Sequence record: PZ386971.1
Source of the DNA: a phage
Strand: one strand, 5' to 3'
Length of the DNA: 64,000 nt
Part shown: one piece after another, positions 6,925-61,180 of the stretch
Numbering within the stretch: the stretch's first letter is position 1
Layout: each line of letters begins with the position of its first letter
Made by a program: the position numbers and the translations under genes
Notes under the pieces: generated by a model
What the model saw: only the letters and a program-made list of their open reading frames with translations
What the model was told of the DNA's origin: nothing
Databases searched by the model: none

Positions 6925-8643
6925 GTGACAGCATTCAACCAATATACCAAGGCGCTTGACGGCGTCGGACCAGTCAGCATAGACCGCATCAAGTCTCTTG
7001 CCACTGAGTTCTTCCCGTATGACACCGCCAACCCCGGCCAGATGGAATGCATCGTTGAAGCCATTGATGCCCTTGTGAATAAGAAATTCAAACACGTGAT
7101 CATCGAGGCTCCGACTGGTGTAGGTAAATCCCTCATCGGCACTACCATCCATAATGTGCTTCGCCATTTGGTTCTTGAGCACAACCCGTATGGTCAGTTC
7201 CGCACGTCTATCACGACGCCGACCAAAGGTTTACAGGATCAGTATGCAGCAGAGAAAGCCGTGGCGATAGACATCCTGAAGGGCAAGAAGAACTACCGTT
7301 GCCACATCAGTCCCGACCTATACTACAACGCCATTCAGTGCCGTATGGCATGCCGTGATGGCCACTGTAGTAAGAATCGTTGCCCATATGTTCAGGCGCG
7401 TCGACAGTGGACCGACGTCTCCTCCCTGCGCTGCACCAACGCCGCCATGATGGTGGAGATGTGTACGACGATTTGTATGAAGCCGGAAAACCGTGCCGAT
7501 ATGCTGATCCTTGACGAGTGTCATAAGATGCCCTCTACGCTCCTAGAGCATACTATCATGGAATACAACATAAAGGCTGTGGAAGGGTTGCTTACGATCC
7601 CCGAGGGAGTGCCTATCGTGGAGACCATCAAGGATATCATCATCCGCACAGAGAACTATGAATTGGGCAAGCTGTATTCCCTGTCTGGTGAGATGCATGC
7701 GATATTTGATGAACTACACGGCAAGGTTGAAGCCCTGTTGGAAACTCTTGAAGAACTGGTAGAGGATGAGCGCCTGACTGAAGCCCAGGTGATGAAGCTG
7801 TCTGATATTATTGATAATCTTCACAACCTCAGTGACTACTGCGGTATCATGGGGCAGACCAACGCCAGCACTTTCATCGTACAGGAGAAGGACAAGGGTA
7901 TGATTCAGTTCAAGCCTGTCATCGCCTCTGATGTATCCCAGTTCGGTCTGTTCCGCAAGGGTGACTACCACGTTCACATGTCGGCGACCATCTGCGGGAT
8001 TGACTCGTACGCCCGGTCACTGGGTATCCGCGAGGGTGAGTACCACAAGATACAGATCGGCAACCCTATCCCGATTGAGAACCGGAAAGTCAACTACATG
8101 CCCATCATGAAGATGACAGCGAACATGGGTGACTACGAGATGAAGAAGCTGGCTGAATACGTGGATGAAATTATCGCGTTCCACCCTGGGCAGTCTGGCA
8201 TCATTCACACAGTCAGTTATGACCGCGCCCTGGCTCTACAAAAGTTCAGTAAGTACCGGAATATGATTCACGTTCCTCGTACTCGTAAGGCTCTGATGGA
8301 CATCATGGAAAACGCGTTCAGGACGAAGACGCCTTGTGTCATCGCCAGTCCGGCCATGGAAGAGGGGTATGACTTCAAAGGCGATTATAGTCGATTTCAG
8401 ATCTTGATCAAAGTGCCATACGATTACCTTGGTGATCCTCTGGTGGCCCACGTCAACAGTGTGGACCCATCGGCGTACTTCAGGATGGCGGTACTGCGTA
8501 TCGTTCAGATGTGTGGGCGTTCGGTCAGGGGCGTGAATGACTGGGCTGCGACGTACATCCTTGATTCTTCTTTTGAATCACTGATGATGCGCAACCCAGA
8601 GTTCTTCCCCGCTTGGTTCACTGATGCCGTGTTTGAGGTTTAG
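6925..8643 (+). CDS. SF2 DNA helicase, Rad3/XPD/DinG-like with Cys cluster (GTG start)
   Basis: Walker A APTGVGKS, DECH box, Cys-rich insert CRMACRDGHC; AGGAGG RBS before GTG. Confidence 0.7.
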   Translation: MTAFNQYTKALDGVGPVSIDRIKSLATEFFPYDTANPGQMECIVEAIDALVNKKFKHVIIEAPTGVGKSLIGTTIHNVLRHLVLEHNPYGQFRTSITTPTKGLQDQYAAEKAVAIDILKGKKNYRCHISPDLYYNAIQCRMACRDGHCSKNRCPYVQARRQWTDVSSLRCTNAAMMVEMCTTICMKPENRADMLILDECHKMPSTLLEHTIMEYNIKAVEGLLTIPEGVPIVETIKDIIIRTENYELGKLYSLSGEMHAIFDELHGKVEALLETLEELVEDERLTEAQVMKLSDIIDNLHNLSDYCGIMGQTNASTFIVQEKDKGMIQFKPVIASDVSQFGLFRKGDYHVHMSATICGIDSYARSLGIREGEYHKIQIGNPIPIENRKVNYMPIMKMTANMGDYEMKKLAEYVDEIIAFHPGQSGIIHTVSYDRALALQKFSKYRNMIHVPRTRKALMDIMENAFRTKTPCVIASPAMEEGYDFKGDYSRFQILIKVPYDYLGDPLVAHVNSVDPSAYFRMAVLRIVQMCGRSVRGVNDWAATYILDSSFESLMMRNPEFFPAWFTDAVFEV

Positions 8644-9407
8644 TAACCCGCAACGAAGGACAGATGGCACTTGACATTCGGTTCCAACGACGTCACAGAA
8701 ACCGTCATATTGTCCGTATCTTGGCTGAAGTCAATGGTGGCGAGAGGTTTGGTCTGAATATGGTTGTAAACACTGTAGATCAGATCCTCGCCACGATACC
8801 CTACCTTCCCGTCGGTGTCTTGCCAATGACCCAGTGTTTCATCGTAGACATGCACTCTGAACTCGATCATATGGAAGAGTGCCTTGGGGATGTCCTTGAG
8901 TACGCTGGTGCCAACCACGGGAATCTCTATGCTGGAATCATTGGAGTTCCCTTCATAGACCGAAGCCCATGCAAAGGTAGGATCACCCCCAGCAACAGGG
9001 GTTCGCTTCCAGTATTGGAATTCTGGGTTGCCTGAAGCGTTCTTCTGAAGTAGAATGACCTCACCACCTTTGAAGTTCGAGGTATCGATGTCGCCTCGCT
9101 GAAGTTCATCTGCTGGAGATCCAATAAATTTCCAACCTTCGCGATCCAGTAAAGACTTATAATAGTCGGTGAACACGTTGCTGTCTTCTGCATCGTTGAT
9201 GGCATCTTTGAGACCTTGGCCTGTCACCATCTCGTTGAGCTTCAACCACATGTTCTTGACAGCAGACGCTGCTGCGACTTGTCCAGCAGTCCCACCTGCA
9301 GCATAATCATAGATGATATCTTCTGACTTGATAGCATCATAGATAGAGAGGAGCAATTGCTCAATCTGCGGGGCGGTGAGACTGAAACGATATGCGCGGG
9401 GTGCCAT
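8640..9407 (-). CDS. hypothetical late protein (255 aa)
   Basis: Internal ATG with GAGGAATGA RBS; TATAAATA late-promoter motif about 35 nt upstream. Confidence 0.5.
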   Translation of the reverse strand: MAPRAYRFSLTAPQIEQLLLSIYDAIKSEDIIYDYAAGGTAGQVAAASAVKNMWLKLNEMVTGQGLKDAINDAEDSNVFTDYYKSLLDREGWKFIGSPADELQRGDIDTSNFKGGEVILLQKNASGNPEFQYWKRTPVAGGDPTFAWASVYEGNSNDSSIEIPVVGTSVLKDIPKALFHMIEFRVHVYDETLGHWQDTDGKVGYRGEDLIYSVYNHIQTKPLATIDFSQDTDNMTVSVTSLEPNVKCHLSFVAGY

Positions 9408-9439: not shown

Positions 9440-9452
9440 GGATATTTATATC
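9440..9452 (-). promoter_or_regulatory. T4-type late promoter (GATATAAATATCC on minus strand)
   Basis: TATAAATA core upstream of 9407 start. Confidence 0.5.
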
Positions 9453-9991: not shown

Positions 9992-10783
9992 ATGGGAATG
10001 AACTTCGTGGACAGAGGGGAGAATGTCGTCAAATATTTCACGGACGAAGACAACGAGCGTGTCATTAGTATCCTTCGTGATTGGATCCCCGCCCGCAAGA
10101 AAGCACTTGCTGAGGGCACCAGGCTTCCAAAGATCCCCAACTATGTTGCTCTGCAGGTCCAGCGCATCATCACCAAGATGAGTACCCGCTACAACTATCG
10201 CGACTATCCCTTCCGTGAAGACATGGTCTCTGAAGCAATAGTCAACATCCTGCGCTACCTCCACACCTTTGACGTCGAACACATTGGAAAGAAAGGGAAG
10301 ATCAACTTCTTCTCTTGGGTGACCATGTGCGCTGATCGATCATTCGCTCGTAAACTGAATATCGAAGAAGAACACACGTACATCAAATTGCGCTCATTTG
10401 AAGAGGCGGGTGGGTTCGCAGGCCTGGCAGACGATCCCGACTTCCAACAAGAGATCTTTGTTGACGCGACAGGGATTGGTATGGACTTCCGTGAGCGTAT
10501 CGGTAACTTTGAGAACAAAAAGGACGCTCAAAGGCAGAAGGAGCGAGAGAAGGTGGAGGCGGCTCGTCTCGCAGAATCGAATAAAAAGATTGCGAAAGGC
10601 ATACTTCAATACATGGCGCAGGCTAAGAATACGGTAACAGCGCAGGCCGAAGACAATTCAGATCAGGACTTTGGCAAAACCCAATTCAATCTGGAAGATG
10701 ATATCTGTGCGATGGAACCAGATTGGGAAGCCCTCAAACAAAGATTAGAAGAACGGGAGAAAAAGAATAATGGCGATTGCTAA
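9992..10783 (+). CDS. late-transcription sigma factor, T4 gp55-like, with C-terminal charged extension
   Basis: Block-wise similarity to recalled T4 gp55 (ILRDW, RYLHTFD, NFFSWVTMCADRSF). Confidence 0.6.
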   Translation: MGMNFVDRGENVVKYFTDEDNERVISILRDWIPARKKALAEGTRLPKIPNYVALQVQRIITKMSTRYNYRDYPFREDMVSEAIVNILRYLHTFDVEHIGKKGKINFFSWVTMCADRSFARKLNIEEEHTYIKLRSFEEAGGFAGLADDPDFQQEIFVDATGIGMDFRERIGNFENKKDAQRQKEREKVEAARLAESNKKIAKGILQYMAQAKNTVTAQAEDNSDQDFGKTQFNLEDDICAMEPDWEALKQRLEEREKKNNGDC

Positions 10784-14989: not shown

Positions 14990-15021
14990 GGCACTAAATA
15001 CCACGTGCCCTTTATCTTTTA
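14990..15021 (+). terminator. hairpin terminator with TAAATACC in loop
   Basis: GGCAC ... GTGCC stem then CTTTATCTTTT; loop matches late-promoter core. Confidence 0.5.
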
Positions 15022-17073: not shown

Positions 17074-17148
17074 GATAAGGGGGCTGACGCTCCCTTTTGG
17101 TTTCGCTAATTAGAAGAAACCGCCGTTAATTCAATCAGGAGATATAAA

Positions 17149-20133: not shown

Positions 20134-20157
20134 TCATTGAAAGCCCCTTCGGGGGCT

Positions 20158-20165
20158 TATAAATA
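20158..20165 (+). promoter_or_regulatory. T4-type late promoter TATAAATA
   Basis: Exact TATAAATA 25 nt upstream of ATG 20190, after hairpin AGCCCC ... GGGGCT. Confidence 0.55.
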
Positions 20166-20189
20166 ACTGAAATCCCCGAGGAGATTAAG

Positions 20190-20759
20190 ATGAAACCGTT
20201 TATCGAATATTTTAAAGAACAAGCCGCTAAACCTCAGACCCATGCTGGTGTCCAGGGTAAGACCGTATCCATCACCAAGCAAGCTGACGGCACCCAGTGG
20301 TGTTCCGGCGCTACCGTGACCCAGATCACCCCTGACAATCAGGCGGATGTCTACAACCTGGAGTTAACCAACGGCAACACTATCAAGGTGAAGCTGACTC
20401 CGGATCAGACCCATGGCATTACCCAAGGCCAGGAAGTTGTTGCTGTCCATGACGGTTTCGAATTCTTCTTTGGCAAGTCTGCCGACAAAGGCCAGGTGAC
20501 CGAATCCTATGCTCAGGAACTGGCGAACATGGACAAGATGATCGGTAAAGCACTGGGTGCTGGCAAGTCTCGCAAGAGTGGTCGTACTGAGTTTGAATAC
20601 TCTGGCATCCCTGGCATCGGCAAGGCGATCACCGTGAACTTCGGTGGTGAAGATGACCCGTATGTGATCGTCACCTGCAACGGCAAGGAGCATGATATCA
20701 GCAAGGGTAAAAACCTGGCTGCTGACATTGCCAAGTTCCTCGGTGTTAAGCCTGTCTAG
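20190..20759 (+). CDS. hypothetical late protein (189 aa)
   Basis: ATG with GAGGAG RBS; late promoter upstream. Confidence 0.55.
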   Translation: MKPFIEYFKEQAAKPQTHAGVQGKTVSITKQADGTQWCSGATVTQITPDNQADVYNLELTNGNTIKVKLTPDQTHGITQGQEVVAVHDGFEFFFGKSADKGQVTESYAQELANMDKMIGKALGAGKSRKSGRTEFEYSGIPGIGKAITVNFGGEDDPYVIVTCNGKEHDISKGKNLAADIAKFLGVKPV

Positions 20760-20808
20760 AAGGTTGCACTAGACGACGCCACGGCGAAAGAACTTGGTCT
20801 GTAACTGG

Positions 20809-20840
20809 ATCCCCCTAAATACAGGGGGATTTCTTTTTCT
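20809..20840 (+). terminator. rho-independent terminator (ATCCCCCT ... AGGGGGAT + T tract)
   Basis: Perfect stem plus TTTCTTTTTCT. Confidence 0.7.
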
Positions 20841-20852
20841 GAGGACAACATC

Positions 20853-21206
20853 ATGGTCAACGCTAGTATTTTCATCAACCGTGGATTGCTTGCTATAGCC
20901 CACTCTCATGCCTTACACTTCGTTACAACGTCCTATGCCAAGCACAAGGCACTCGGGGAGTTCTACGGGGAACTGGAGGACTTACTAGACACGTTTACCG
21001 AAGCATACATCGGCGCGGGTGGTCAGTATGTTCCATCATTCGAGAATATCAAATTGTACAATCCTGATCCGATATCGTATATCAACAGCGTAATCATCGA
21101 CGTCAATGGGATCTACAATCAATGTGACAGCCATTTACAAAACACGCTTGACGAAATCAAAACTCTGTGCTATCAAACGATTTACAAACTGAAGCAACTG
21201 GCGTAG
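20853..21206 (+). CDS. hypothetical protein (117 aa)
   Basis: ATG ORF with GAGGA RBS. Confidence 0.45.
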   Translation: MVNASIFINRGLLAIAHSHALHFVTTSYAKHKALGEFYGELEDLLDTFTEAYIGAGGQYVPSFENIKLYNPDPISYINSVIIDVNGIYNQCDSHLQNTLDEIKTLCYQTIYKLKQLA

Positions 21207-21267
21207 TCTATAGATCTATCTGATAATATAATTGCCCATTATTTGTCAATCATAGATAAGGATAAAG

Positions 21268-21876
21268 ATGGGCAAGATCTTCGTTCCAACACATTTAGAA
21301 GGCTGTCAAATTGCAGCCAAATATCTTCACAAGCAGATGAATTGCGGTGCCGTATTTATCGAACCGAATCCTCACACCAATTCTGAATCCCCTGATGCAA
21401 TCGGGTTTCGCCCCGATGGGTGCAGTATTTTGATCGAGGTCAAAATCAGCCGGGATGATTTCCGAGCAGATGCTAAGAAACCTCATCGCATCAATCCTGA
21501 GCAGGGGATGGGCAGCTATCGTTTTTATGCATGTCCTGAGGGAGTCATCCGCATTGAAGATCTACCACCAAAGTGGGGGTTGTTCTACTTCACGCCTCGA
21601 AAATCATTGAAGGCGATCCATGTCCCCGACATGAAGATATCTTCCCTGTATTCCCCTCAGCACTATCTGAATATGATAGCCTGCCGAGGCCAGAATGGCA
21701 AGATGCCTCCTTATCTCCTCCATTACCAAAAGATGGTGGAAGACTTCGGCCATGTCGTAAAGAACACCGTCGCTGAACACAATGTCCTCTATGGGGCTTG
21801 GCGTCAGCTCTGTATTGCTCAAACCCGTGGTGTGGCATATACTGTCAATGAGGTATTCCAGAGGCCCGCGATTTAA
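21268..21876 (+). CDS. PD-(D/E)xK nuclease-fold protein
   Basis: Motif SPDAIGF ... ILIEVK. Confidence 0.4.
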   Translation: MGKIFVPTHLEGCQIAAKYLHKQMNCGAVFIEPNPHTNSESPDAIGFRPDGCSILIEVKISRDDFRADAKKPHRINPEQGMGSYRFYACPEGVIRIEDLPPKWGLFYFTPRKSLKAIHVPDMKISSLYSPQHYLNMIACRGQNGKMPPYLLHYQKMVEDFGHVVKNTVAEHNVLYGAWRQLCIAQTRGVAYTVNEVFQRPAI

Positions 21877-21886
21877 GAGGTGTACT

Positions 21887-22171
21887 ATGTCATTAGCAGC
21901 ATACAACAAAGAATTTTCAGAAATAAATTATGACTTCTTGTTTGCGAGTGAGCGCCGATTTGTACAGGCGAATGAATATTTGGAAAACCACGGTATGGAA
22001 TCCAGATATGAAAATATATTGAACATGCAAGCGGCCATGGCGACGACTGAACTTGGGGCTGACAGTTATGAAGCCAAAGCATATTCTCGTCTTACCCATT
22101 ATGATCAGACCATGGTAGAAAAATATAAATCTATCCTTTCTCAGAACGGGTGGGTAAATGAAATTTCTTGA
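21887..22171 (+). CDS. hypothetical protein (94 aa)
   Basis: ATG with AAGAGG RBS; track ORF started upstream at an alternative codon. Confidence 0.4.
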   Translation: MSLAAYNKEFSEINYDFLFASERRFVQANEYLENHGMESRYENILNMQAAMATTELGADSYEAKAYSRLTHYDQTMVEKYKSILSQNGWVNEIS

Positions 22172-23219
22172 CGAACAATTCATAAATTACGTTGCTCCCA
22201 GACTCGATAAATTCAAGTGGGAACGTGTTGGGTCTGTCGCAAATTTTAGATGCCCACTTTGTGGAGATTCTCTCAAAAGTGCTAACAAGCGACGCGGTTA
22301 TTTTTTCTTCGATCGAGATAATGATTGCTTTCGGTTTAAATGTCATAATTGCCATAACATGAGTGGCTGGGCGTTTGAGTTCTGGTTGAAGAAGTTTGAT
22401 GAACGCTTGTCCACCGAGTACAACATGGAGAAGTTCCGTCTGCTGGGTGATTCATCTTCCAAGCCGCTCCCGGCGCTGAAGCCTTTGCCAAAGCTGACAC
22501 AGTCAGCCCGTATCGGTTCAATGGAGGCTAAACGCGACGAGAGCCTCCTCGGCAATATGCTCCGACTTGATCTGCTACCGCCCAACCATAAGGCTCGGCA
22601 GTACGTACAGGGCAGGGGAATGCCGGAGAGCACGTTGCCCCTCCTGTATTACACCCAACACTTCCGCCAGGATCTACTCCAGTTCGAAACGAACCCCGAG
22701 AAGCAGCTGAAAATCCCCGATGACGAACGGCTGGTGATTCCATTCTGGACGCAAGACGGGCGTATGAAGATCGTCCAGGGGCGTGCATTTGAAGTGCGTG
22801 ATGGGATACTGCGGTACTCTACTGTCAAGCCGCGCGATGAAGACACTAAGGTCTATGGTGAAGACCGGGTGAACATTCACAAGACCAAGCTGGTTGTGGA
22901 AGGTCCGATTGACAGCCTATTCCTACCCAACTGTCTTGCATCGGCCGACGCTGATCTACTGAGTGTGAAGGGCGACATCTATATCCCCGACAACCAGTAC
23001 CGGAACCCGCAGGTGTGTGACGGTATCCAGAAGATGATAGATAAAGGTGTCAAGGTTGTACTGTTCCCACCAGACGTTCCTTGGAAGGATATCAACGACA
23101 TGGTCATGCCATCAAAGGGCAACATGTCCATACAAGACCTCCTGAAGCTGATCGCCAAGAACGTTTACCAGGGTATGGCCGCATCATTACAATTCGCAGA
23201 ACTGAGGAAAGTACGATGA
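22158..23219 (+). CDS. DNA primase, T4 gp61-like
   Basis: Zinc ribbon CPLCGD ... CHNCHN and TOPRIM motif VVEGPIDSLF; colinear with recalled T4 gp61. Confidence 0.85.
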   Translation: MKFLDEQFINYVAPRLDKFKWERVGSVANFRCPLCGDSLKSANKRRGYFFFDRDNDCFRFKCHNCHNMSGWAFEFWLKKFDERLSTEYNMEKFRLLGDSSSKPLPALKPLPKLTQSARIGSMEAKRDESLLGNMLRLDLLPPNHKARQYVQGRGMPESTLPLLYYTQHFRQDLLQFETNPEKQLKIPDDERLVIPFWTQDGRMKIVQGRAFEVRDGILRYSTVKPRDEDTKVYGEDRVNIHKTKLVVEGPIDSLFLPNCLASADADLLSVKGDIYIPDNQYRNPQVCDGIQKMIDKGVKVVLFPPDVPWKDINDMVMPSKGNMSIQDLLKLIAKNVYQGMAASLQFAELRKVR

Positions 23220-24251: not shown

Positions 24252-24261
24252 TTTAAATACC
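24252..24261 (+). promoter_or_regulatory. late promoter-like element TTTAAATACC
   Basis: Shares TAAATACC core with gp5 promoter; about 28 nt upstream of endolysin ATG. Confidence 0.45.
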
Positions 24262-24288
24262 TCTGCATTCATTGTGGAGGTATTTCTT

Positions 24289-25111: not shown

Positions 25112-25185
25112 ATCCAATCCTCAGGTATGCTGGGGTTGTCACCTTAATTAGAGGTGATGACACCCTGAGATATAGGAAGGTTCCC

Positions 25186-28463: not shown

Positions 28464-28757
28464 ATGTTCCAAACGTTATTGTTAGTCCCTGGCCAACCAG
28501 GTATCTTGCTCGAACACAACAGCAAAATGGAAGCGGAGAATGTTCTGCGCAACGTGAAGGTGGCCACTGCTTGGCACAACGGCGGCGAAGTCACGGCTAT
28601 CCCGTTGAACTACACGGATCCAATGGATACTGTGAACCGTACTCACATCCTTCTAGACCTCAGCAAATTACCTGCAGACAAACGCCGGGATTTTGTTGTT
28701 AACATCAAGAATTACATTACCACCGAACAGATCAAACTCCACGAAGGCAAGGCATAA
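28464..28757 (+). CDS. hypothetical protein between nrdA and nrdB (97 aa)
   Basis: ATG after hairpin GGGGTGA ... TCACCCC; stop 1 nt before nrdB start. Confidence 0.45.
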   Translation: MFQTLLLVPGQPGILLEHNSKMEAENVLRNVKVATAWHNGGEVTAIPLNYTDPMDTVNRTHILLDLSKLPADKRRDFVVNIKNYITTEQIKLHEGKA

Positions 28758-30202: not shown

Positions 30203-30442
30203 ATGACCGACTCTGAAGTCTACGACACCTCAATGAAATACCACGCCATGACAGCCAAACGCGGCTGTGCTGCTAACAAGGCATATTGGATAGGTGAACT
30301 CAGAACCCTCCGCGCCGTGGTCAACCACGAAATCATTATGAATCACGACAACAACGGTCAAGGTAAAGACCGAGAAGAATTGAAGGTTGCTCGTGAACGT
30401 CTTCGCTTTGGTCTGACCAAAGCCCTTGAATATGTGAAATAA
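30203..30442 (+). CDS. hypothetical early protein (80 aa)
   Basis: ATG after conserved leader AGGAACTATATCATGAC. Confidence 0.45.
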   Translation: MTDSEVYDTSMKYHAMTAKRGCAANKAYWIGELRTLRAVVNHEIIMNHDNNGQGKDREELKVARERLRFGLTKALEYVK

Positions 30443-30453
30443 GGAACTATATC

Positions 30454-30915
30454 ATGACAAACAAAGTACTCACCAACCCACTGCACAACTTCGGTTACAT
30501 TCAACTCCCTCTGGTGATCGACACCCTGTACGCCGACGACAAAGAAGAGATCTGCTGGTCACCCACCGCACTGATTGAACGCGAAATCTTCAAGTCTGTT
30601 GTTGATGTCATGTTCCGTATCGGTCGCAATGGACCTCTGGTCTACCTCGGCAAGGTGACTGAGTTGAAGACAAGCCACAACGAACGCTTCCTTCGTATCG
30701 ATACAACGGGGTGCTCTCATCAGGACTTCAACACATTGCGCAATTATGTTCTGGTCAACCGCCCGGTCAGTCAACACCGCCCGTATCTGACGTCAATGCA
30801 CATCGACAATTTCATCACCGACGTACACCTCCGCGCCGAAACCCTCCATGAAGAGGAAACAGGCCGAGCTATCGACACAGTCTTAAATATGGTTGTGATC
30901 ACCCTGGCGGAGTAG
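30454..30915 (+). CDS. hypothetical early protein (153 aa)
   Basis: ATG after conserved leader. Confidence 0.5.
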   Translation: MTNKVLTNPLHNFGYIQLPLVIDTLYADDKEEICWSPTALIEREIFKSVVDVMFRIGRNGPLVYLGKVTELKTSHNERFLRIDTTGCSHQDFNTLRNYVLVNRPVSQHRPYLTSMHIDNFITDVHLRAETLHEEETGRAIDTVLNMVVITLAE

Positions 30916-33364: not shown

Positions 33365-33377
33365 GGTATTTATGCGC
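33365..33377 (-). promoter_or_regulatory. late promoter (GCGCATAAATACC on minus strand)
   Basis: TAAATACC core about 35-45 nt upstream of gp5-like start. Confidence 0.5.
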
Positions 33378-34651: not shown

Positions 34652-34694
34652 AATGTATCTCCACGGTATATTGTAAGAGTAATTATAACGAGGA

Positions 34695-35694: not shown

Positions 35695-35700
35695 CCCGGC

Positions 35701-35745
35701 GTAAATAGCCCATACACCAATGAAACTTCGTTATGGGCTATTTAC
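35701..35745. promoter_or_regulatory. perfect 13-bp inverted repeat GTAAATAGCCCAT ... ATGGGCTATTTAC containing late-promoter-like TAAATAGCC on both strands
   Basis: Exact palindrome arms with 19-nt spacer, abutting ATG 35746. Confidence 0.5.
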
Positions 35746-55637: not shown

Positions 55638-57584
55638 TTACCATTCCCACAGGATGCGGGAATTATCTGTTTTGTTCTCAGGCTCAAGATATGAGCTGTT
55701 GAAGTTATTGGTCGTGTTGATCCTCTTAGAAGCATCCACATTCTGCTGTACTGGCATCACGACGCTGGCTGGAGGCGGTGAATAGCCGCCTTGTACTTGC
55801 TCAATATTAGACAGCGCCCTCCCTTGTGTTGGCATGGCCCCGCCCAGAGTACCACCCCCGATAGAACCATACGCAGCTTTCAGCTGAGAGGTGCGGTCAT
55901 TAGTCATATTCTTGTCATCCGAAGACGCACCAGAAGGTATTGGAGTCAGCGTTTGTGGATCGATGTTCGGTTGTGCTGGCTTCTGTGGCTGCTGGGTCTC
56001 TGTCACATTAGGAGACGGATTCTCATCAGTGTCAATCAGCATAGACTGGCGAGCCTCATCCATCTTCTGCTTCGCAGCCTGTCCACCCAGAGCGTCAGGG
56101 ATGATGCTGACGAACTTGTCAACGATATCGAACATCGCATTGGTGATTGTGTTCAGCATGTTGAAGAAAGGTTTCTTCACATTTTCGGCAAATCCCTTCT
56201 TGATATCGTCAATGACCTTGTTGGCCACACCCATGCCCTCGTCGATCACACTACTGATACCCCCTGTGATCCAGTCTACCAGCTTTATCAACTCGGACTG
56301 TAGGTTGTCTGCTAACTTGCCAGGGATATCCGTAAGAGACGTGTCTCTCCCGATCCCTGCAAACAAGTCGTTGCTAATCCAGTCGATAATACCATTCAGC
56401 CAACGAGCGGGAGCCTCAGTGATCATGAGGGTGTATTTGCGCAGGGTTTCACCCGCCTCGGTATCAAAGCCAAAGATCTTGGACACCCAGTCAAATAGAT
56501 CACCAAATCCACCAACCAGTTCTGATATCCCCGCCCGTACTCGGTCAACTATCGTGACAGCACCTTTACCCAGGATCTCCTTCGCATCAATGAAGCCTTT
56601 ACCGAAGTCCCAGATCATAGACAGGAGAGCCAGTGGGCCGACTTTCAGGAACTTAAACACCTTCCCAAATGGACCCAGAAGTTTGGTGATACCTTCTCCC
56701 AGCTTGGAGAACATGCCGAGGAAAGTCCCGACAACACCACCGATGATCTTGAACGGCTTGAGCAAGAAGCCCTTCAGTGCATTCAGGCCAAGCATGGCCG
56801 CCACCGCCGCCCCGATACCGGAGGAATCGTCTTTCTGGTCATCGTCTTTGGGTATAACAGAACCCGCCTGAGGATGACCACCCGTTTCTTTGTCGGTTTC
56901 CCCACGGCGCATCTCGTCCTTCTCACGCCACTTCTGGTCTTCATCAAAGATGCGTGTCAACACTCCAACGATATGACCACCCGTGCGCCCAATCTTGTTT
57001 TCAATGCTAGACAAGCGAGTAAGGGTGTCATCGGAGTTCTTTTTCAGTTCAGCAACATCGTCACGAACCTCGATCATCACTCCGTCGATCATGTTCAAGA
57101 ATGATCCCACGCGGACCAGAGACACACTCTGCTCGTCCATGCGCTTGAGGGTGTCATCATTGGCAGACTTCAGCTGGTCTGAGATCAGGTTAAGATACTC
57201 CAGGGACGTGTCATCTGTTGGCATGCGGGTGATCTCACCGAGGCGGTCAATCTTGCCTGCGATATTCTCCAGTTCCCGATTGCCTTCGTTACCCACATCG
57301 ACAGTATCCTTCATCCATACGCTGAAGTCGCGGGTGAAGATCGGAGACATGCGAGCGAATCCCATGACGATCTCATTGACTGTCGGGATACGGATTTCAA
57401 ATGGCTTGGACTCGGCCTTGGTGCCCTGTTTAGTGGCAGATTCCAGCTTGGCCAGATTCTTGTTCATCCGGTCAAGCTGTCTGTTGGTTTCATTCTGAGC
57501 GCGGAGTTGTTTGCGCTGCATCATCTCCGCCTTGATCTTGTCTAGAACTTTGACAACATCATTGTTCGTTGCTTCCTGTGCCAT
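55638..57584 (-). CDS. tail tape-measure/baseplate hub-like protein (648 aa) with Gly-rich hydrophobic core
   Basis: Coiled-coil N-terminus, Gly/hydrophobic central region typical of tape-measure proteins; last gene of late baseplate operon. Confidence 0.45.
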   Translation of the reverse strand: MAQEATNNDVVKVLDKIKAEMMQRKQLRAQNETNRQLDRMNKNLAKLESATKQGTKAESKPFEIRIPTVNEIVMGFARMSPIFTRDFSVWMKDTVDVGNEGNRELENIAGKIDRLGEITRMPTDDTSLEYLNLISDQLKSANDDTLKRMDEQSVSLVRVGSFLNMIDGVMIEVRDDVAELKKNSDDTLTRLSSIENKIGRTGGHIVGVLTRIFDEDQKWREKDEMRRGETDKETGGHPQAGSVIPKDDDQKDDSSGIGAAVAAMLGLNALKGFLLKPFKIIGGVVGTFLGMFSKLGEGITKLLGPFGKVFKFLKVGPLALLSMIWDFGKGFIDAKEILGKGAVTIVDRVRAGISELVGGFGDLFDWVSKIFGFDTEAGETLRKYTLMITEAPARWLNGIIDWISNDLFAGIGRDTSLTDIPGKLADNLQSELIKLVDWITGGISSVIDEGMGVANKVIDDIKKGFAENVKKPFFNMLNTITNAMFDIVDKFVSIIPDALGGQAAKQKMDEARQSMLIDTDENPSPNVTETQQPQKPAQPNIDPQTLTPIPSGASSDDKNMTNDRTSQLKAAYGSIGGGTLGGAMPTQGRALSNIEQVQGGYSPPPASVVMPVQQNVDASKRINTTNNFNSSYLEPENKTDNSRILWEW

Positions 57585-57595
57585 GGGTCACCTCG

Positions 57596-58984
57596 TTAAA
57601 CCTTCTGTGCTTGGCCTTTCTCAATCGCCTGAGGAGTAGTGGTGGAAGCAGTTGTCTGATTGGTCTGAGGTGGAAGCACCTGCTCCAGCAAACTGTCCTT
57701 GGCAATCTCAGCGATGCACTGATAATCTTTGGTCAGGCGGGAAATTTTGTGACGCACTTTGGTCACGATATAGTGGCCTGTCGATAGCTTACTTAACTCT
57801 GCCAGGTTTTCGTTCTTCTTAGGACGGTTGGACTGGTCTTCGACGTAGAACACCTGACCGACGTTCAGGCGGTTATCACCAACGAGCAACACGCGCATCA
57901 CAGTGCTGGCAAGACTGAAGTTGATAACACGACGAGCATAATCAATCTGCTCCGCTCCATCCGGCTGGGCTTCAATGTAACGGACGTTCTGACGATTGAA
58001 TTCATCTGAGAACATCGGGAACGGATCAAGGTGAGCCGTCTCTGCAAACCACTCAGTATAGATGCGCTGTGTTGGGGTGACTGTCTTGGTCTCAAAGTCG
58101 TAGACGCGCTCGTTCACCGCCAGGACATCGCGGTAGTTTGCCATAAATTGGTCACGCGTCAGCTTCTTCTCTGCCTTGATGATCGTGCGCATAAAGCGCT
58201 CAGAGTTGAAGTTGTTATCCTGCATGAGCGGTGCGTCCTGAGGATCACGGAATAACTTGTTCTGCTGAGCCAGTTCCTGCTTCTCTTCTGCCGTCAATGA
58301 CTGGCTGCCCTGGTTGAACAACGTCGTCAGGCTCTTGAAGTGATAGCCATTGAAGTCTTCATAGAAAACGAATGGCATGAACAATTCGTCATAAGAACGG
58401 CTCGCCATATAATCAATAGATCGCAGCACAGGCCAGAGCGGGGTGGCGAACCGCTCTTGAATTCCATACGACGGGTCGATGTCTTCGAACTTGGTGCGCG
58501 ACTCCAACTGATTGAAGATTGCCTTCGCCATGTCAGAATACGAACCGTCGAGACCGAGGGAGCATCGGATCATGCTGTCCTTATAGGCATCGGTGGTCAC
58601 CATGTGCAACCAGAATGCTTTCTTGGACGAGCTGTTGGACTCATCAGCTACGCGCCCAACACGCGCTACGCGCAGGGAGAGAGTGGTGTATTCCGAGGCC
58701 GCCGGACTCTTGAATGACACCACAACTTCTTCACCACCCAAGATAGGCATTGTGTCAAGAATGTCCCACCCTTCTTTTATCAAGACATTGGCTGTAAGTG
58801 ATGGAGATGACTTCCCTTCAAGACCCAGATCCTGGAAGACGTTGAACTCCTCAAACAACGCCGTCAGGTCATATGGCGTTGGTGATCCGCCCTGGGGTGT
58901 ATGAGGGAGTATCGCCATATACTTCAGGTCAAATGTTGTTGACGGTGTTACAATACCGTCTTGGGTCTCTCTGTTTTCGATCAT
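57596..58984 (-). CDS. putative baseplate hub/wedge protein (462 aa)
   Basis: Operon position between gp53-like and tape-measure-like genes. Confidence 0.4.
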   Translation of the reverse strand: MIENRETQDGIVTPSTTFDLKYMAILPHTPQGGSPTPYDLTALFEEFNVFQDLGLEGKSSPSLTANVLIKEGWDILDTMPILGGEEVVVSFKSPAASEYTTLSLRVARVGRVADESNSSSKKAFWLHMVTTDAYKDSMIRCSLGLDGSYSDMAKAIFNQLESRTKFEDIDPSYGIQERFATPLWPVLRSIDYMASRSYDELFMPFVFYEDFNGYHFKSLTTLFNQGSQSLTAEEKQELAQQNKLFRDPQDAPLMQDNNFNSERFMRTIIKAEKKLTRDQFMANYRDVLAVNERVYDFETKTVTPTQRIYTEWFAETAHLDPFPMFSDEFNRQNVRYIEAQPDGAEQIDYARRVINFSLASTVMRVLLVGDNRLNVGQVFYVEDQSNRPKKNENLAELSKLSTGHYIVTKVRHKISRLTKDYQCIAEIAKDSLLEQVLPPQTNQTTASTTTPQAIEKGQAQKV

Positions 58985-59535
58985 TTCGCCAACTCCTGCT
59001 CCAGCTGATTGACAAACGAAGACACATAATCTGGGTCGAGTACTTGGATGTTCCGTTTGGCTTCATTCTTACTGATTGCATCATCATGGTATGAAACTGC
59101 CGTCAGACCATAGTTAGCAATTATGGACGGCTCATCTAGGTCTAGGTTATATGCAAATTTGATAGCACGGGCGTCGGTCACATTGTTGAACTGGTCGACA
59201 TAATAGGCTGTATCCCACATACCATCGATGCCGTAATCTGCAGTCAGTTCTTCAACAATACGGCGTTCCGGTTTCGGCCAGTCCTTATTGATGTCCATGA
59301 TGCCGTTTATCAGACAAGGTATCCAAAACAACTCGAAGGATCCGTAAACGCGTTCTGCGAAAGACCTTGGGGTTTCCCCATCTTGGATCGTATACGGCAG
59401 GAGAAGTCCTTCGATGTCCTTAATTTTCTGTAAGATCATCACCCGGCGCGTTAAGTTCTGTAACAGCACCTGATCATTCTCTTGGACATCTTGCAATTGA
59501 TGCCAAACAAGTGGAAACTTCTCAAAATATTTCAT
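58981..59535 (-). CDS. baseplate wedge protein, T4 gp53-like
   Basis: YTIQDGETPRSFAERVYGSFELFWIPCLINGIMD parallels gp53 YYIKGSPRPEELANAIYGNPQLYWVLLMCNDNYD. Confidence 0.6.
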   Translation of the reverse strand: MKYFEKFPLVWHQLQDVQENDQVLLQNLTRRVMILQKIKDIEGLLLPYTIQDGETPRSFAERVYGSFELFWIPCLINGIMDINKDWPKPERRIVEELTADYGIDGMWDTAYYVDQFNNVTDARAIKFAYNLDLDEPSIIANYGLTAVSYHDDAISKNEAKRNIQVLDPDYVSSFVNQLEQELAK

Positions 59536-59546
59536 GGCATCCTCTC

Positions 59547-60515
59547 TTAGAAGCTATCGCCTTCGGTTTCAAAGCGCCCTTTGTGTAGAGGCTCCAGTTC
59601 GATGAAGGTCATGTCAACCTGCGTGGACACGATACCATCATCTTTGTGAACCGCGTATGAACTGTCCGGCGTCTCGTTGACGAACATGTTGGAAAGTACA
59701 CAAGTGGAGATGCGGTGCAGCCACTGGTTACGCTCCCCATTGACCATGAACGTAATGTCGAATGTTGAAGGATGCAAGTAAAACGCGCTGGAATTCTTGT
59801 TGTACTTGTACTCTGGGTACATATGCATCTTGAACATGCGGATGATCTCACGGACCATCTTGGCTTCCTTCTGAGATCGCGGCGTGAATTTGAATGTAAA
59901 TGGAATCTCACGGTTGCGAACACCCTGGAAGATCATCTCCACATATGGGTTGGTCATGGTGCCTGTGAACAACTCAAGGGTGTCATGAGCGTTAATGCTC
60001 GGCAGGAATGGAATAGCCTCCGACGCAGATTGGATAGCCTTGGTGGCAGCGAATCGCCCCATCTCCTTCCCGACGTTGAGCGCATCACCCAGTTTAAACT
60101 GAGTCATGTCTTGGGCGGCGCGGGAAAGGAACTGTGCCCCCATACCAGCCAGCCCCAGCTCGCTACCGTTCCAGCCAACACCATAGTTGGTTGTAATGTA
60201 CTCCGGCATACACAGAACAATAGATTCGTTCGAACGAACGTGACGCGCCCATGCATATTTGGTGATGGAACCAGACTTGGACCCATAGACCACAGGAGTA
60301 TTCCCCAGAGGGTTCTGTATTGGGTTCTCGATAGTCTGAGTAGCCGTGTTGCCATAAGATGAACCGGAGATGCGGTTGATGTTGAATAGGACATAGTGTC
60401 CCAAGGTCTTACCCCCAGTAACGTCTAGGGGATAAGACAATTGCTTCTGAGCCTGGGACAATCCCTTCGTGTTCAGAACCTTGATCTTATCGATTGTCTT
60501 CTTGAAGTCGGCCAT
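59547..60515 (-). CDS. tail tube-family baseplate protein (gp48/gp54-like), first gene of late operon
   Basis: Tube-family layout; late-promoter-like CTAAATAGCC upstream. Confidence 0.45.
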   Translation of the reverse strand: MADFKKTIDKIKVLNTKGLSQAQKQLSYPLDVTGGKTLGHYVLFNINRISGSSYGNTATQTIENPIQNPLGNTPVVYGSKSGSITKYAWARHVRSNESIVLCMPEYITTNYGVGWNGSELGLAGMGAQFLSRAAQDMTQFKLGDALNVGKEMGRFAATKAIQSASEAIPFLPSINAHDTLELFTGTMTNPYVEMIFQGVRNREIPFTFKFTPRSQKEAKMVREIIRMFKMHMYPEYKYNKNSSAFYLHPSTFDITFMVNGERNQWLHRISTCVLSNMFVNETPDSSYAVHKDDGIVSTQVDMTFIELEPLHKGRFETEGDSF

Positions 60516-60526
60516 GGTCTCAGCCC

Positions 60527-60557
60527 TTAAATAGATAGAGTGTTATGGCTATTTAGG
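60527..60557. promoter_or_regulatory. divergent late promoter pair (TTAAATAGAT plus strand; CCTAAATAGCC minus strand)
   Basis: TAAATAG cores 30-40 nt upstream of divergent ATGs at 60566 and 60515. Confidence 0.45.
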
Positions 60558-60565: not shown

Positions 60566-61180
60566 ATGAGCAACTATCTTCAGGGGAAGTACACCCCGGT
60601 TAATCCCAAGAAGTATCAGGGGAATGTGAATAACATCATCTTCCGCTCTTCGCTGGAGTTGGTGGCTTTCAAGTTCTGTGATATGAACTCCGCGATAGTG
60701 AAGTGGTCTAGTGAGGAGACCGTAATCCCTTACATTTCCCCAGTCGACGGGCGCACCCATCGTTACTTCATGGACCTCAAGGTCTGGACGCGCCGTGAAG
60801 GGCAAGAGGAACTACAGGTCACCCTCATTGAGATCAAGCCCAAAGACCAGATCAAGCAGCCGAAGAAGACTCCGAACATGAAGGAGTCGACATTCAACAA
60901 TGCGATGCGAACCTGGTTGGTCAATTCTGCCAAGTGGGAGGCCACCCGCGAACTGTGTGCCAAGAAGAACTGGAAGTTCATTATCTGGACCGAAGAGCAT
61001 CTTGTTCCAGGTGAAGATCCGGATGTTCGTAAACAGTTTGAGCTGAAGTCGAAAAAGAAACGGGATATGGAGATGCAAGATCGCCGACATGCCGAACGTG
61101 TCAGGGTGCTGAAGGAACAGATGCGGAAGGAGATTAAACCCGCCCCAACGGAGCGGGATGATGGACTTCTATTACCTTAA
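60566..61180 (+). CDS. late protein with PD-(D/E)xK-like motif; possible head-completion nuclease (gp4-like)
   Basis: Motif DLKVW ... LIEIKPKD; late promoter; divergent from baseplate operon. Confidence 0.3.
   Translation: MSNYLQGKYTPVNPKKYQGNVNNIIFRSSLELVAFKFCDMNSAIVKWSSEETVIPYISPVDGRTHRYFMDLKVWTRREGQEELQVTLIEIKPKDQIKQPKKTPNMKESTFNNAMRTWLVNSAKWEATRELCAKKNWKFIIWTEEHLVPGEDPDVRKQFELKSKKKRDMEMQDRRHAERVRVLKEQMRKEIKPAPTERDDGLLLP

What the first reader, a model, noticed from the sequence alone, without database searches (positions are those of the whole stretch)
20158..20165. T4-type late promoters (TAAATA cores) scattered through the window, matching the gp55-like sigma factor
TATAAATA or TAAATA(C/G)C elements lie 25-45 nt upstream of 20190, endolysin (24252-24261), gp5-like (33365-33377, minus), 8640..9407 (9440-9452, minus), the tube-family gene (39477-39489, minus), the RuvC-like gene (35701-35710) and the divergent pair at 60527-60557. 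A gp55-like sigma is encoded at 9992..10783. This marks several uncharacterised genes (8640..9407, 20190..20759, 39499..40203, 60566..61180) as late and probably virion or morphogenesis proteins.
Basis: partly seen in the sequence, partly recalled or inferred. Interest (0 to 1): 0.5.

Follow-up and report, generated by a model that had tools for sequence, protein, structure and literature searches.

The report
Late promoters of a ViI-like phage
Short TAAATA boxes about 30 bases upstream of the virion, lysis and DNA-packaging genes of this ViI-like (Ackermannviridae) phage are very probably its T4-style late promoters, which were already predicted for close relatives, so the finding is real but ordinary.

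Summary
The window is an Agtrevirus (Ackermannviridae), about 97% identical to Salmonella phage vB_CECAV_050 and 93% to Shigella phage Ag3. TAAATA is not enriched window-wide (19 seen, 15.8 expected). Its placement is far from random: 13 of 19 copies are intergenic, and 11 of 19 end 20-40 nt upstream of a sense start codon (P about 1e-15). They sit before virion, lysis and packaging genes. The core T-A-A-(A>T>G)-T-A is invariant in 57 orthologous sites from five genera while flanks diverge. There is no -35 box, and a purine lies at the T4-predicted +1 in 12 of 13 sites. gp55 (9992..10783) and gp33 (36872..37117) homologues are encoded. Of the four "uncharacterised" genes, two are gp2 and gp4 homologues. 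Orthologues of the other two were found in LIMEstone1 virions by mass spectrometry. No transcript data exist. Late promoters were already predicted for Ag3 (two of these sites) and LIMEstone1, so novelty is low.

The parts
20158..20165 (+). TATAAATA box, the flagged site. It lies 24 nt upstream of ATG 20190 and directly 3' of hairpin 20142-20157 (AGCCCCTTCGGGGGCT). Predicted +1 is A20171.
   Evidence: TAAATA is conserved in Limestonevirus and Kuttervirus; Taipeivirus has TAATTA.
20190..20759 (+). 189-aa protein of unknown function (phrog_4048, weak TOBE-like hit); probable virion protein.
   Evidence: The XF4 orthologue is annotated 'unknown structural protein'; LIMEstone1 ORF80 (20.28 kDa) was seen by MS. 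It is probably the Sajous1 gp215 'molybdate-binding-like' protein with 32 spectra (orthology inferred, not checked by sequence).
9443..9450 (-). TATAAATA box 35 nt upstream of ATG 9407. Predicted +1 is A9437.
   Evidence: Conserved in five lineages; Kuttervirus has TATAAGTA.
8640..9407 (-). 255-aa virion structural protein (phrog_3833).
   Evidence: The LIMEstone1 orthologue (L034) has a computed mass of 28.32 kDa, equal to ORF93, which gave 8 peptides and 41% coverage.
39480..39487 (-). TATAAATA box 34 nt upstream of GTG 39445 (tail tube / tube-initiator gene 38501..39445).
   Evidence: It is identical to 'Porf072' in Table S2 of the Ag3 paper.
39459..39466 (+). CTTAAATA box 32 nt upstream of ATG 39499 (gp2 DNA end protector). 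It overlaps the tail-tube promoter face to face.
39499..40203 (+). gp2-like DNA end protector.
   Evidence: phrog_429, E = 2e-67. A DNA end protector gave 3 spectra in Sajous1 virions.
33367..33374 (-). CATAAATA box 34 nt upstream of ATG 33332 (gp5 hub/lysozyme; gp25 probably co-transcribed).
   Evidence: The core is conserved in five genera with fully diverged flanks. It equals 'Porf084' of Ag3.
24252..24259 (+). TTTAAATA box 29 nt upstream of ATG 24289 (endolysin). Predicted +1 is G24265.
24255..24285 (+). 13-bp leader hairpin (AAAUACCUCUGCA / UGUGGAGGUAUUU) that pairs the endolysin Shine-Dalgarno GGAGG (24276-24280). The late box lies in its 5' arm.
   Evidence: Fold of -16 kcal/mol, z = -3.1. 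RNA starting near the predicted +1 does not form the hairpin. 98.9% of cells paired in 7 sequences, with only wobble changes.
35700..35707 (+). CGTAAATA box 38 nt upstream of ATG 35746 (RuvC-like resolvase). Predicted +1 is about 35713.
35702..35744 (+). Leader hairpin ending 2 nt before the RuvC-like AUG. The late box forms its 5' arm.
   Evidence: Fold of -20.9 kcal/mol, z = -4.7; lost in RNA from the predicted +1. 100% paired in 6 sequences from 4 genera, with 2 compensatory pairs, plus a paired G:C insertion in the window lineage.
60526..60533 (+). CTTAAATA box 32 nt upstream of ATG 60566 (gp4 head completion).
   Evidence: Kuttervirus and Taipeivirus have TAATTA at the same place.
60566..61180 (+). 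gp4-like head completion / head closure protein.
   Evidence: phrog_218, E = 8e-58; Pfam TnsA-like N-terminal domain.
60550..60557 (-). CCTAAATA box 34 nt upstream of ATG 60515. It heads the gp48-gp53-tail protein-648 aa (tape-measure-like) operon 55638..60515.
20814..20821 (+). CCTAAATA box in the loop of terminator-like hairpin 20807-20832, 31 nt upstream of ATG 20853. The gene encodes a 117-aa DUF5856 / ferritin-like protein.
   Evidence: Conserved in four genera. The orthologue LIMEstone1 ORF78 (13.15 kDa) is in virions.
34680..34687 (-). TATAATTA variant box 28 nt upstream of ATG 34651 (gp26 baseplate hub).
   Evidence: The other four genera have TATAAATA at this position. The variant is shared with vB_CECAV_050.
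17105..17112 (+). GCTAATTA variant box in a hairpin loop (17099-17121), 36 nt upstream of ATG 17149 (994-aa protein). Candidate.
   Evidence: The C-terminal part of the XF4 orthologue is annotated 'unknown structural protein'.
25143..25150 (+). CTTAATTA variant box in a hairpin loop (25139-25157), 35 nt upstream of ATG 25186 (PhoH). Candidate.
   Evidence: PhoH was detected at low coverage in LIMEstone1 virions.
14993..15000 (+). ACTAAATA in the loop of hairpin 14987-15012, 80 nt upstream of ATG 15081. Weak candidate.
30882..30889 (+). CTTAAATA inside the coding sequence of 30454..30915, 31 nt upstream of ATG 30921. Weak candidate.
   Evidence: Its conservation in two genera could reflect the overlapping protein.
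9992..10783 (+). gp55-like late sigma factor.
   Evidence: phrog_234, E = 3.4e-52 over the whole profile, the same family as T4 gp55. A MAFFT alignment to T4 gp55 keeps the pocket residues: N13=N21, R57=R66, F86=F93, T99=T111, Y97>W109, H95>F107, L54>M63.
36872..37117 (+). gp33-like late-transcription co-activator.
   Evidence: Pfam PF16805 Trans_coact, 64 bits against a cut-off of 25; phrog_254.

Best explanation
The TAAATA-core boxes are most likely the -10-type late promoters of this Agtrevirus. By analogy with T4, host core RNA polymerase carrying the phage gp55 sigma-like subunit (9992..10783) would recognise the box at -11..-6. The co-activator gp33 (36872..37117) and the phage sliding clamp would assist. 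The clamp (gp45 homologue) is encoded outside the window in the near-identical genome. Transcription would start at a purine 6 nt downstream, giving 19-33 nt leaders in front of virion, lysis and packaging genes on either strand. Shown here: the sequence features, their placement and conservation, and the presence of the factors. Inferred: gp55 dependence, late timing and the start sites. The local consensus is Y-N-T-A-A-(A>T>G)-T-A, so T4's first two positions are free, as in Aeromonas phage Aeh1. TAATTA appears to be an accepted variant. At the endolysin and the RuvC-like resolvase the box lies in the 5' arm of a leader hairpin that masks the ribosome-binding region. Read-through transcripts would therefore be silent and late transcripts translatable, as at T4 genes e and 49. 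This step is inferred.
For: Identity of the window: an Agtrevirus whose relatives carry gp55, gp33 and gp45 homologues. Placement: 13 of 19 TAAATA are intergenic; 11 of 19 lie in the 20-40 nt upstream zone (P = 9e-16); it is the top hexamer there. TAATTA has 4 sites, all intergenic, 3 of them in the zone. Association: 11 of 13 late-expected genes against 2 of 31 others carry the box (Fisher P = 7e-7). A separate TATAAT class precedes DNA-metabolism genes. Conservation: 57 unique orthologous sites from 13 genes and five genera keep five core positions invariant. The fourth position is A45/T10/G2, -13 is a pyrimidine in 51 of 57, and the predicted +1 is a purine in 49 of 57, while flanks diverge. 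Within the window, 12 of 13 sites have a purine exactly at +1 (P = 0.0017) and there is no information at -35. The same box (cacTAAATAyc) precedes scaffold, sheath, gp14, tail-fibre, tail-spike and gp6 genes in the structural module of the 97%-identical genome. TAAGTA precedes the major head gene and TAATTA precedes portal and gp19. TAAATA, TAATTA and TAAGTA are depleted inside genes against synonymous-codon shuffles: 6 against 13.2, 0 against 4.5, 4 against 12.5. gp55 is in the same PHROG as T4 gp55, with its DNA-pocket residues kept or conservatively replaced. Hairpins. T4 precedents: PMC2988020 and PMC3014915.
Against: There are no transcript, start-site or timing data for any member of the family. 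Only 3 of 13 sites have the full T4 box. Positions -12 and -8, which T4 gp55 reads through base-flipping pockets, vary here. The -5..-1 segment is not AT-rich (0.51), unlike T4. The window gp55 shows no pairwise BLASTP similarity to T4 gp55 and no PDB sequence hit. TAAATA is not enriched window-wide. Two intergenic copies (35739 minus, 49403 minus) have no gene to serve. Several sites overlap conserved hairpins or short spacers between conserved genes, so part of the conservation could have other causes. The box is absent upstream of gp25 here and upstream of gp4 in XF4.
Confidence: 0.85

Rival explanations
1. The boxes are -10 elements used by host sigma-70 holoenzyme, or by a phage-modified form of it, as early or middle promoters rather than gp55-dependent late promoters.
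For: TATAAATA contains TATAAA, a 5-of-6 match to TATAAT. The variants TATAATTA before gp26 and SSB contain a perfect TATAAT. Timing has never been measured.
Against: Most sites (CTTAAATA, CCTAAATA, CGTAAATA) match TATAAT in only 3 of 6 positions and lack the final T. There is no -35 information. A separate TATAAT class, often with TTTACT / TTCAATAA upstream, sits before replication and nucleotide-metabolism genes, whereas TAAATA sits before virion, lysis and packaging genes. The generic sigma-70 scan is not enriched.
Confidence: 0.05
2. The conserved TAAATA/TAATTA words are parts of RNA- or DNA-level structures, or of protein-binding sites, rather than promoters. Examples would be terminator loops and stems, A/U tracts of bidirectional terminators, or processing signals.
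For: Seven candidate sites lie in hairpin loops or arms: 14995, 17107, 20816, 25145 and 37385 in loops, 24254 and 35702 in 5' arms. The RuvC-like and endolysin hairpins are followed by U-rich sequence and could act as terminators. TAATTA is a palindrome.
Against: The sites before gp5, gp26 and 8640..9407 lie in no hairpin, yet keep the same core, the same distance to the start codon and the same +1 purine. A structural role does not explain invariance of five specific bases in loops, the strand specificity, or the link to late-type genes. TATAAT boxes of the other promoter class are embedded in hairpin loops in the same way (42375-42391, 52804-52836). That argues the hairpins are a context for promoters, not an alternative to them.
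Confidence: 0.07
3. Chance occurrence of an AT-rich word in AT-rich intergenic DNA.
For: Intergenic DNA is more AT-rich (GC 0.43 against 0.50), and TAAATA is not enriched window-wide.
Against: 7 of 2000 dinucleotide shuffles of the intergenic DNA reach the observed count. The positional test gives P = 9e-16. The core is conserved across five genera.
Confidence: 0.01

Closest known systems
Bacteriophage T4 late promoters (TATAAATA at -13..-6) read by gp55, with gp33 and the gp45 sliding clamp
   Same: A single -10-type box with no -35 element, on either strand, in front of virion, lysis and packaging genes. gp55 and gp33 homologues are encoded, and gp45 is in the near-identical genome. A purine lies at the distance of the T4 start site. 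gp55 pocket residues are largely conserved.
   Different: Only the last six bases are fixed. Position -13 is any pyrimidine, -12 is free, and -8 tolerates T or G. The segment downstream of the box is not AT-rich. gp55 is 263 aa against 185 aa, has a long acidic C-terminal extension, and shows no pairwise BLAST similarity to T4 gp55.
Late-promoter consensus of Aeromonas phage Aeh1 ((A/G)C at -13/-12 in place of TA), as cited in PMC2988020
   Same: The first two positions of the T4 box are replaced. Many sites here and in the structural module read (a/c)CTAAATA.
   Different: Here -13/-12 are not fixed to (A/G)C; TA, CA, CT, CC, TT and CG all occur. I did not examine Aeh1 sequences myself.
Predicted late promoters of Shigella phage Ag3 (PMC3121705) and Dickeya phage LIMEstone1 (PMC3296691)
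   Same: Same family, and for Ag3 the same genus. The Ag3 Table S2 entries Porf072 and Porf084 are the orthologues of the window's tail-tube (39480-39487) and gp5 (33367-33374) boxes. LIMEstone1 was reported to have 33 late promoters.
   Different: Ag3 lists only three sequences, found by searching TATAAATA with one mismatch. Neither paper gives the NN-TAAATA consensus, the TAATTA variants or the hairpin context. The CBA120 paper states that the late recognition sequence of the family was not yet identified.
T4 genes e, 49, soc and I-TevI: a late promoter inside the 5' arm of a hairpin that masks the ribosome-binding site of read-through transcripts (PMC3014915)
   Same: The endolysin and RuvC-like leaders form stable hairpins that cover the Shine-Dalgarno or pre-AUG region. 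The predicted late start falls within or after the 5' arm, so late RNA cannot form them.
   Different: The regulated genes appear unrelated to T4 e and 49, judging from their annotations (a 264-aa endolysin; a RuvC-fold resolvase rather than endonuclease VII). I did not compare the sequences. Nothing is tested experimentally. The endolysin hairpin has no compensatory changes.

Membership tests
T4-type (gp55-dependent) late promoter | 8-bp TATA box TATAAATA at -13..-6 | tested here: inconclusive
   The core TAAATA (-11..-6) is present at 10 intergenic in-zone sites, with TAATTA at 3 more. The full 8-mer is present at only 3. Positions -13/-12 are variable. This is comparable to the variant consensus reported for Aeh1.
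T4-type (gp55-dependent) late promoter | No conserved -35 element | tested here: met
   Small-sample-corrected information content is about 0 from -51 to -14 across 13 non-orthologous sites.
T4-type (gp55-dependent) late promoter | AT-rich segment immediately downstream of the box | tested here: not met
   The AT fraction of -5..-1 is 0.51, equal to the window average. C is favoured at -5/-4. The feature is as described in PMC2988020.
T4-type (gp55-dependent) late promoter | Located before late genes (virion, lysis, packaging) on either strand | tested here: met
   11 of 13 late-expected genes against 2 of 31 others (Fisher P = 7e-7), on both strands. The same holds in the structural module of the near-identical genome.
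T4-type (gp55-dependent) late promoter | Cognate factors gp55, gp33 and sliding clamp gp45 encoded by the phage | tested here: met
   gp55 matches phrog_234 and gp33 matches PF16805, both in the window. gp45 ('DNA polymerase processivity factor') lies outside the window in 97%-identical PQ306799. The Ag3 paper reports all three.
T4-type (gp55-dependent) late promoter | Transcription starts about 6 nt downstream of the box, late in infection, dependent on gp55 and on DNA replication | not testable with these tools
   Only indirect support: a purine at the predicted +1 in 12 of 13 sites. No transcriptome of an Ackermannviridae phage was found.
gp55 late sigma family | Sigma region-2-like domain with the pocket residues that read the -10-like element (T4 N13, L54, R57, F86, H95, Y97, T99) | tested here: met
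   In a MAFFT pairwise alignment the residues align as N21, M63, R66, F93, F107, W109, T111. Four are identical and three conservative. The alignment is of distant proteins, and pairwise BLASTP finds nothing.
gp55 late sigma family | C-terminal hydrophobic sliding-clamp-binding motif (T4 ...SLDFLYEAND) | tested here: inconclusive
   The window protein has a roughly 70-aa acidic C-terminal extension. A weak 'DQDF...QFNL' aligns with SLDF, but no clear motif is visible.
T4 e/49-type promoter-in-hairpin translational control | A hairpin sequesters the Shine-Dalgarno sequence or AUG of read-through transcripts | tested here: met
   Endolysin: 13 bp, -16 kcal/mol, z = -3.1, pairs GGAGG. RuvC-like: -20.9 kcal/mol, z = -4.7, ends 2 nt before the AUG. 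RuvC-like has 2 compensatory pairs with 100% pairing. The endolysin has only wobble changes.
T4 e/49-type promoter-in-hairpin translational control | Late transcripts start inside or after the 5' arm and are translated, while early read-through transcripts are not | not testable with these tools
   The predicted +1 sites (24265 and about 35713) fall at the end of the 5' arms. RNAs truncated near those sites (24266 and 35713) do not form the hairpins. There are no expression data.

The most novel reading that the evidence does not exclude
In this phage family the -10 boxes of both promoter classes may be systematically built into hairpins. That applies to late TAA(A/T)TA boxes and to early/middle TATAAT boxes. 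The box sits in the loop of a terminator-like hairpin or in the 5' arm of a leader hairpin. This would form compact 'stop-and-restart' modules. The hairpin ends or silences transcripts coming from upstream, while transcripts that start at the embedded box lack the 5' arm and escape. For the endolysin and the RuvC-like resolvase this reproduces the T4 gene e / gene 49 logic on genes that appear unrelated to T4 e and 49. A bolder version is that extrusion of these inverted repeats in supercoiled DNA presents the box single-stranded and helps the weak, -35-less gp55 holoenzyme to open the promoter.
Probability: 0.3. Interest if true: 0.45.

Novelty: already known. Interest (0 to 1): 0.25.

Why it matters
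The motif gives a cheap and fairly reliable way to flag late genes, and therefore candidate virion, lysis or packaging genes, among the many hypothetical proteins of Ackermannviridae phages, which are widely used for biocontrol and therapy. It also refines the family's late consensus to NN-TAAATA with a TAATTA variant; the CBA120 paper described that consensus as unidentified. It does not change how late transcription is understood. The mechanism is borrowed from T4, and equivalent predictions were published for Ag3 and LIMEstone1 in 2011-2012.

Tried and rejected
- Window-wide enrichment of TAAATA: absent (19 against 15.8). Only placement is informative.
- Pairwise BLASTP of the window gp55 against T4 gp55: no similarity.
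- phmmer of gp55 and gp33 against PDB sequences: no hits. Homology rests on PHROG and Pfam profiles and a MAFFT alignment.
- Rfam scan of the whole window: nothing.
- Generic sigma-70 promoter and terminator scan of 8000-27000: not above shuffles overall, although the top terminator hits are the intergenic hairpins discussed.
- Literature searches for Ackermannviridae or Kuttervirus transcriptomes: nothing relevant. One query with loose term matching was wasted.
- Covariation in the endolysin leader hairpin: only one-sided wobble changes, so the structure is compatible but not proven.
- The minus-strand TAAATA at 35739-35744 as a promoter for antisense or gp26 transcription: rejected. It is not conserved outside Aglimvirinae and is simply the 3' arm of the RuvC-like hairpin.
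- TAAATA at 49403 minus: no downstream gene on that strand, so treated as incidental.
- Depletion of the boxes inside genes is only suggestive, because other words with two TA steps (TATAAT, AATATA) are also about 30% depleted.

Full report
What the window is. Megablast places the window in the genus Agtrevirus (Ackermannviridae, the ViI-like phages). It is about 97% identical to Salmonella phage vB_CECAV_050 and to E. coli phages ZQ1 and AV101, and 93% identical to the type phage, Shigella phage Ag3. I transferred the annotation of vB_CECAV_050 onto the window by tblastn and built a map of 95 genes. On that map 7.2% of the window is intergenic. A few small genes were left out, for example 28464..28757 and 30203..30442. 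Including them would only shrink the intergenic fraction and strengthen the statistics.

The observation. TATAAATA occurs three times, against 0.7 expected. All three copies are intergenic and 24-35 nt upstream of a sense start codon. The shorter core TAAATA precedes the endolysin, gp5, the RuvC-like gene and the divergent gp48/gp4 pair. TAAATA is not over-represented in the window as a whole (19 against 15.8). Its placement is what stands out. 13 of 19 copies are intergenic (binomial 2.6e-11), against 5.7 +/- 2.3 in dinucleotide-shuffled intergenic DNA. 11 of 19 end 20-40 nt upstream of a sense start codon, a zone holding 1.6% of strand-specific positions (P = 9e-16). TAAATA is the commonest hexamer in that zone, ahead of TATAAT.

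What the boxes are associated with. I took the 44 genes that have their own upstream spacer of at least 20 nt. I classed 13 of them as 'late-expected' independently of the motif. These are the T4 late-gene homologues gp2, gp4, gp5, gp25, gp26, gp48, the tail tube gene and the endolysin, plus orthologues of proteins found in LIMEstone1 virions. Eleven of these 13 carry TAA(A/T)TA in the zone, against 2 of 31 other genes (the RuvC-like gene and PhoH). Fisher's exact test gives P = 7e-7. A different motif class, TATAAT, often with TTTACT / TTCAATAA upstream, precedes replication and nucleotide-metabolism genes. The same late box, typically cacTAAATAyc, precedes the scaffold, sheath, gp14, tail-fibre, tail-spike and gp6 genes in the structural module of the near-identical genome, outside the window. 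TAAGTA precedes the major head gene, and TAATTA precedes the portal and gp19 genes.

Conservation. I compared orthologous upstream regions from Kuttervirus (Vi01), Taipeivirus (0507-KN2-1), Miltonvirus (3M), Limestonevirus (XF4, LIMEstone1) and IMG/VR contigs. This gave 57 unique sites at 13 genes. Five of the six core positions are invariant. The fourth position is A in 45 sites, T in 10 and G in 2. Position -13 is a pyrimidine in 51 of 57, and -12 is free. The base 6 nt downstream of the core is a purine in 49 of 57. The flanks often diverge completely, as upstream of gp5. TAAATA and TAATTA replace each other at orthologous positions. gp26 has TAATTA in the window and TAAATA in four other genera. 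gp4 has TAAATA in the window and in 3M, and TAATTA in Vi01 and KN2-1. SSB has TATAATTA in four genera and TATAAATA in 3M. This argues that TAATTA is a variant of the same element. In the window all four TAATTA palindromes are intergenic, and three lie in the zone, before gp26, PhoH and the 994-aa protein. Within the window alone, 12 of 13 non-orthologous sites have a purine exactly at the T4-predicted +1 (P = 0.0017, peaking at that position). No information is present between -51 and -14, and predicted leaders are 19-33 nt long. TAAATA, TAATTA and TAAGTA are also depleted inside genes relative to synonymous-codon shuffles. That result is only suggestive, because other words rich in TA steps are mildly depleted too.

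The factors. The protein from 9992..10783 matches phrog_234 'late sigma transcription factor' over the whole profile (E = 3.4e-52), and T4 gp55 matches the same profile (2.9e-69). Pairwise BLASTP finds nothing between the two proteins, and neither gp55 nor gp33 hits a PDB sequence. A MAFFT alignment nevertheless lines up the conserved blocks SKRFNFSGY/STRYNYRDY and LHNFD/LHTFD. The seven pocket residues that the cryo-EM study of T4 gp55 showed to read the -10-like element (PMC7892883) align as four identities and three conservative replacements. gp33 (36872..37117) passes the Pfam Trans_coact threshold. The clamp gene lies outside the window in the near-identical genome. The Ag3 and CBA120 papers report all three homologues in the family.

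The four 'uncharacterised' genes. 39499..40203 is a gp2 DNA-end-protector homologue, and 60566..61180 is a gp4 head-completion homologue. They are recognisable late and morphogenesis genes, not unknowns. 8640..9407 is annotated as a virion structural protein. Its LIMEstone1 orthologue has a computed mass of 28.32 kDa, identical to ORF93, which was detected in purified virions with 8 peptides. The XF4 orthologue of 20190..20759 is annotated 'unknown structural protein' and matches LIMEstone1 ORF80 (20.28 kDa, 2 peptides). The next gene, 20853..21206, matches ORF78 (13.15 kDa). In Kuttervirus phage Sajous1, a virion-associated operon gp214-217 includes a 'molybdate-binding-like' protein and a 'ferritin-like' protein. 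This fits the weak TOBE hit of 20190..20759 and the DUF5856 / Dps-like nature of 20853..21206. That orthology is inferred from domain calls and gene order, not checked by sequence.

Hairpin context. The endolysin box lies in the 5' arm of a 13-bp leader hairpin that pairs the Shine-Dalgarno GGAGG (-16 kcal/mol, z = -3.1). The RuvC-like box lies in the 5' arm of a hairpin ending 2 nt before the AUG (-20.9 kcal/mol, z = -4.7). RNAs that start near the predicted late +1 form neither hairpin. The RuvC-like hairpin is fully paired in six distinct sequences from four genera, with two compensatory pairs and a paired G:C insertion in the window lineage. The endolysin hairpin shows only wobble changes. 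This is the arrangement documented for T4 genes e, 49, soc and I-TevI (PMC3014915). Here it is applied to genes that, by their annotations, appear unrelated to T4 e and 49; I did not compare the sequences. Five further candidate boxes sit in the loops of intergenic hairpins (14995, 17107, 20816, 25145, 37385), out of 29 such hairpins in the window. TATAAT boxes of the other promoter class are embedded in hairpins the same way. I read these as compact terminator-plus-promoter modules, but that is inference.

Comparison with what is known. The T4 late promoter is an 8-bp TATA box at -13..-6, with no -35 element and an AT-rich downstream segment. Variants at -13/-12 are known, including (A/G)C in Aeh1 (PMC2988020). 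The window's elements share the box position, the lack of a -35 element, the gene classes and the factors. They differ in having free -13/-12 positions, a tolerant -8 position and no AT-rich downstream segment. For this family, the Ag3 paper searched TATAAATA with one mismatch. Its Table S2 lists three late promoters, two of which are the orthologues of the window's tail-tube and gp5 boxes. The LIMEstone1 paper reported 33 late promoters. A review notes that promoter sequences and positions are conserved across Aglimvirinae. [quoted passage not shown] I found no transcriptome for any member.

Verdict. The boxes are very probably gp55-dependent late promoters (confidence 0.85), and the genes they precede are late virion, lysis or packaging genes. 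This applies a known mechanism to a family where it was already predicted, so novelty is low ('already known') and interest is modest (0.25). The refinements found here are the NN-TAAATA consensus, the TAATTA variant, the +1 purine, and the boxes embedded in masking or terminator hairpins. They are useful annotations and are testable by start-site mapping.

Noticed in passing
window, e.g. 609-616, 969-976, 3193-3200, 6438-6445, 16339-16346, 23503-23531, 41390-41397, 48596-48603, 49368-49375, 51144-51151, 62686-62693: A second intergenic motif, TTCAATAA / TTATTGAA, has 14 copies against 2.3 expected, 12 of them intergenic. It often lies next to TTTACT and 13-17 nt upstream of TATAAT, before replication and nucleotide-metabolism genes or genes of unknown function. 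It is probably the early/middle promoter class, whose control in this family is described as unclear in the CBA120 paper.
   Followed up: partly
window 42375-42391, 52804-52836, 37378-37395, 1276-1293, 1835-1852: TATAAT or TATGAT boxes sit in the loops of GC-stemmed, terminator-like hairpins, for example gctgcTATAATagcagc followed by a T run. The hairpin cggggTATGATTaccccg plus TCTATTTGAAA is repeated almost identically in two neighbouring spacers. This is the same 'box in a hairpin loop' design seen for the late boxes.
   Followed up: partly
window 1309-1322, 1868-1881, 5226-5239, 16429-16442, 16727-16740, 30192-30205, 30443-30456: A near-identical translation-initiation region, (G/A)G(A/G)ACTATA(T/C)CATG, is reused seven times against 0.06 expected. 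The copy at 30192-30205 points to a small gene, 30203..30442, absent from my gene map (derived from the vB_CECAV_050 annotation).
   Followed up: partly
window 33333-33695: A 363-nt spacer between gp5 and the 49-aa gene has no convincing ORF and no Rfam hit. A gap of 360-507 nt lies at the same place in XF4, Vi01, KN2-1 and 3M. Its content is unexplained.
   Followed up: no
window 31649-31721 (minus strand): A hairpin between gp5 and gp25 (GCAGAGGGAC...GUCUCUCUGC) lies at the same position in other genera with different stem sequences, which suggests a conserved structure (attenuator or stabiliser). gp25 has no box of its own and is probably co-transcribed with gp5.
   Followed up: partly
window 10698-11885: The SbcD/gp47 reading frame, when started at the position annotated in vB_CECAV_050 (10698, overlapping the 3' end of gene 55), contains an in-frame stop in this window. 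The uninterrupted ORF starts at ATG 10770.
   Followed up: no
window 17149-20133: The 994-aa protein matches its vB_CECAV_050 counterpart (1024 aa) only over residues 307-900, at 89%, while neighbouring genes are 98-100% identical. It appears to be a variable large protein.
   Followed up: no
window 35731-35748: Vi01 annotates the RuvC-like gene from an ATG 12 nt upstream, inside the hairpin. In the window lineage the paired G:C insertion puts that ATG out of frame, so ATG 35746 is the conserved start.
   Followed up: yes
window 51557-52740, 662-886, 6176-6427; L002 16313-17008: Gene content differs from the 97%-identical vB_CECAV_050. Two extra ORFs (202 and 186 aa) lie upstream of the ligase gene, and there are two small extra ORFs elsewhere. 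The homing endonuclease next to the helicase-loader gene in vB_CECAV_050 is absent here.
   Followed up: no
window coding regions: TAAATA, TAATTA and TAAGTA are depleted within genes against synonymous-codon shuffles (6 against 13.2, 0 against 4.5, 4 against 12.5). This is more than the depletion of control words with two TA steps and may reflect avoidance of spurious late promoters.
   Followed up: partly
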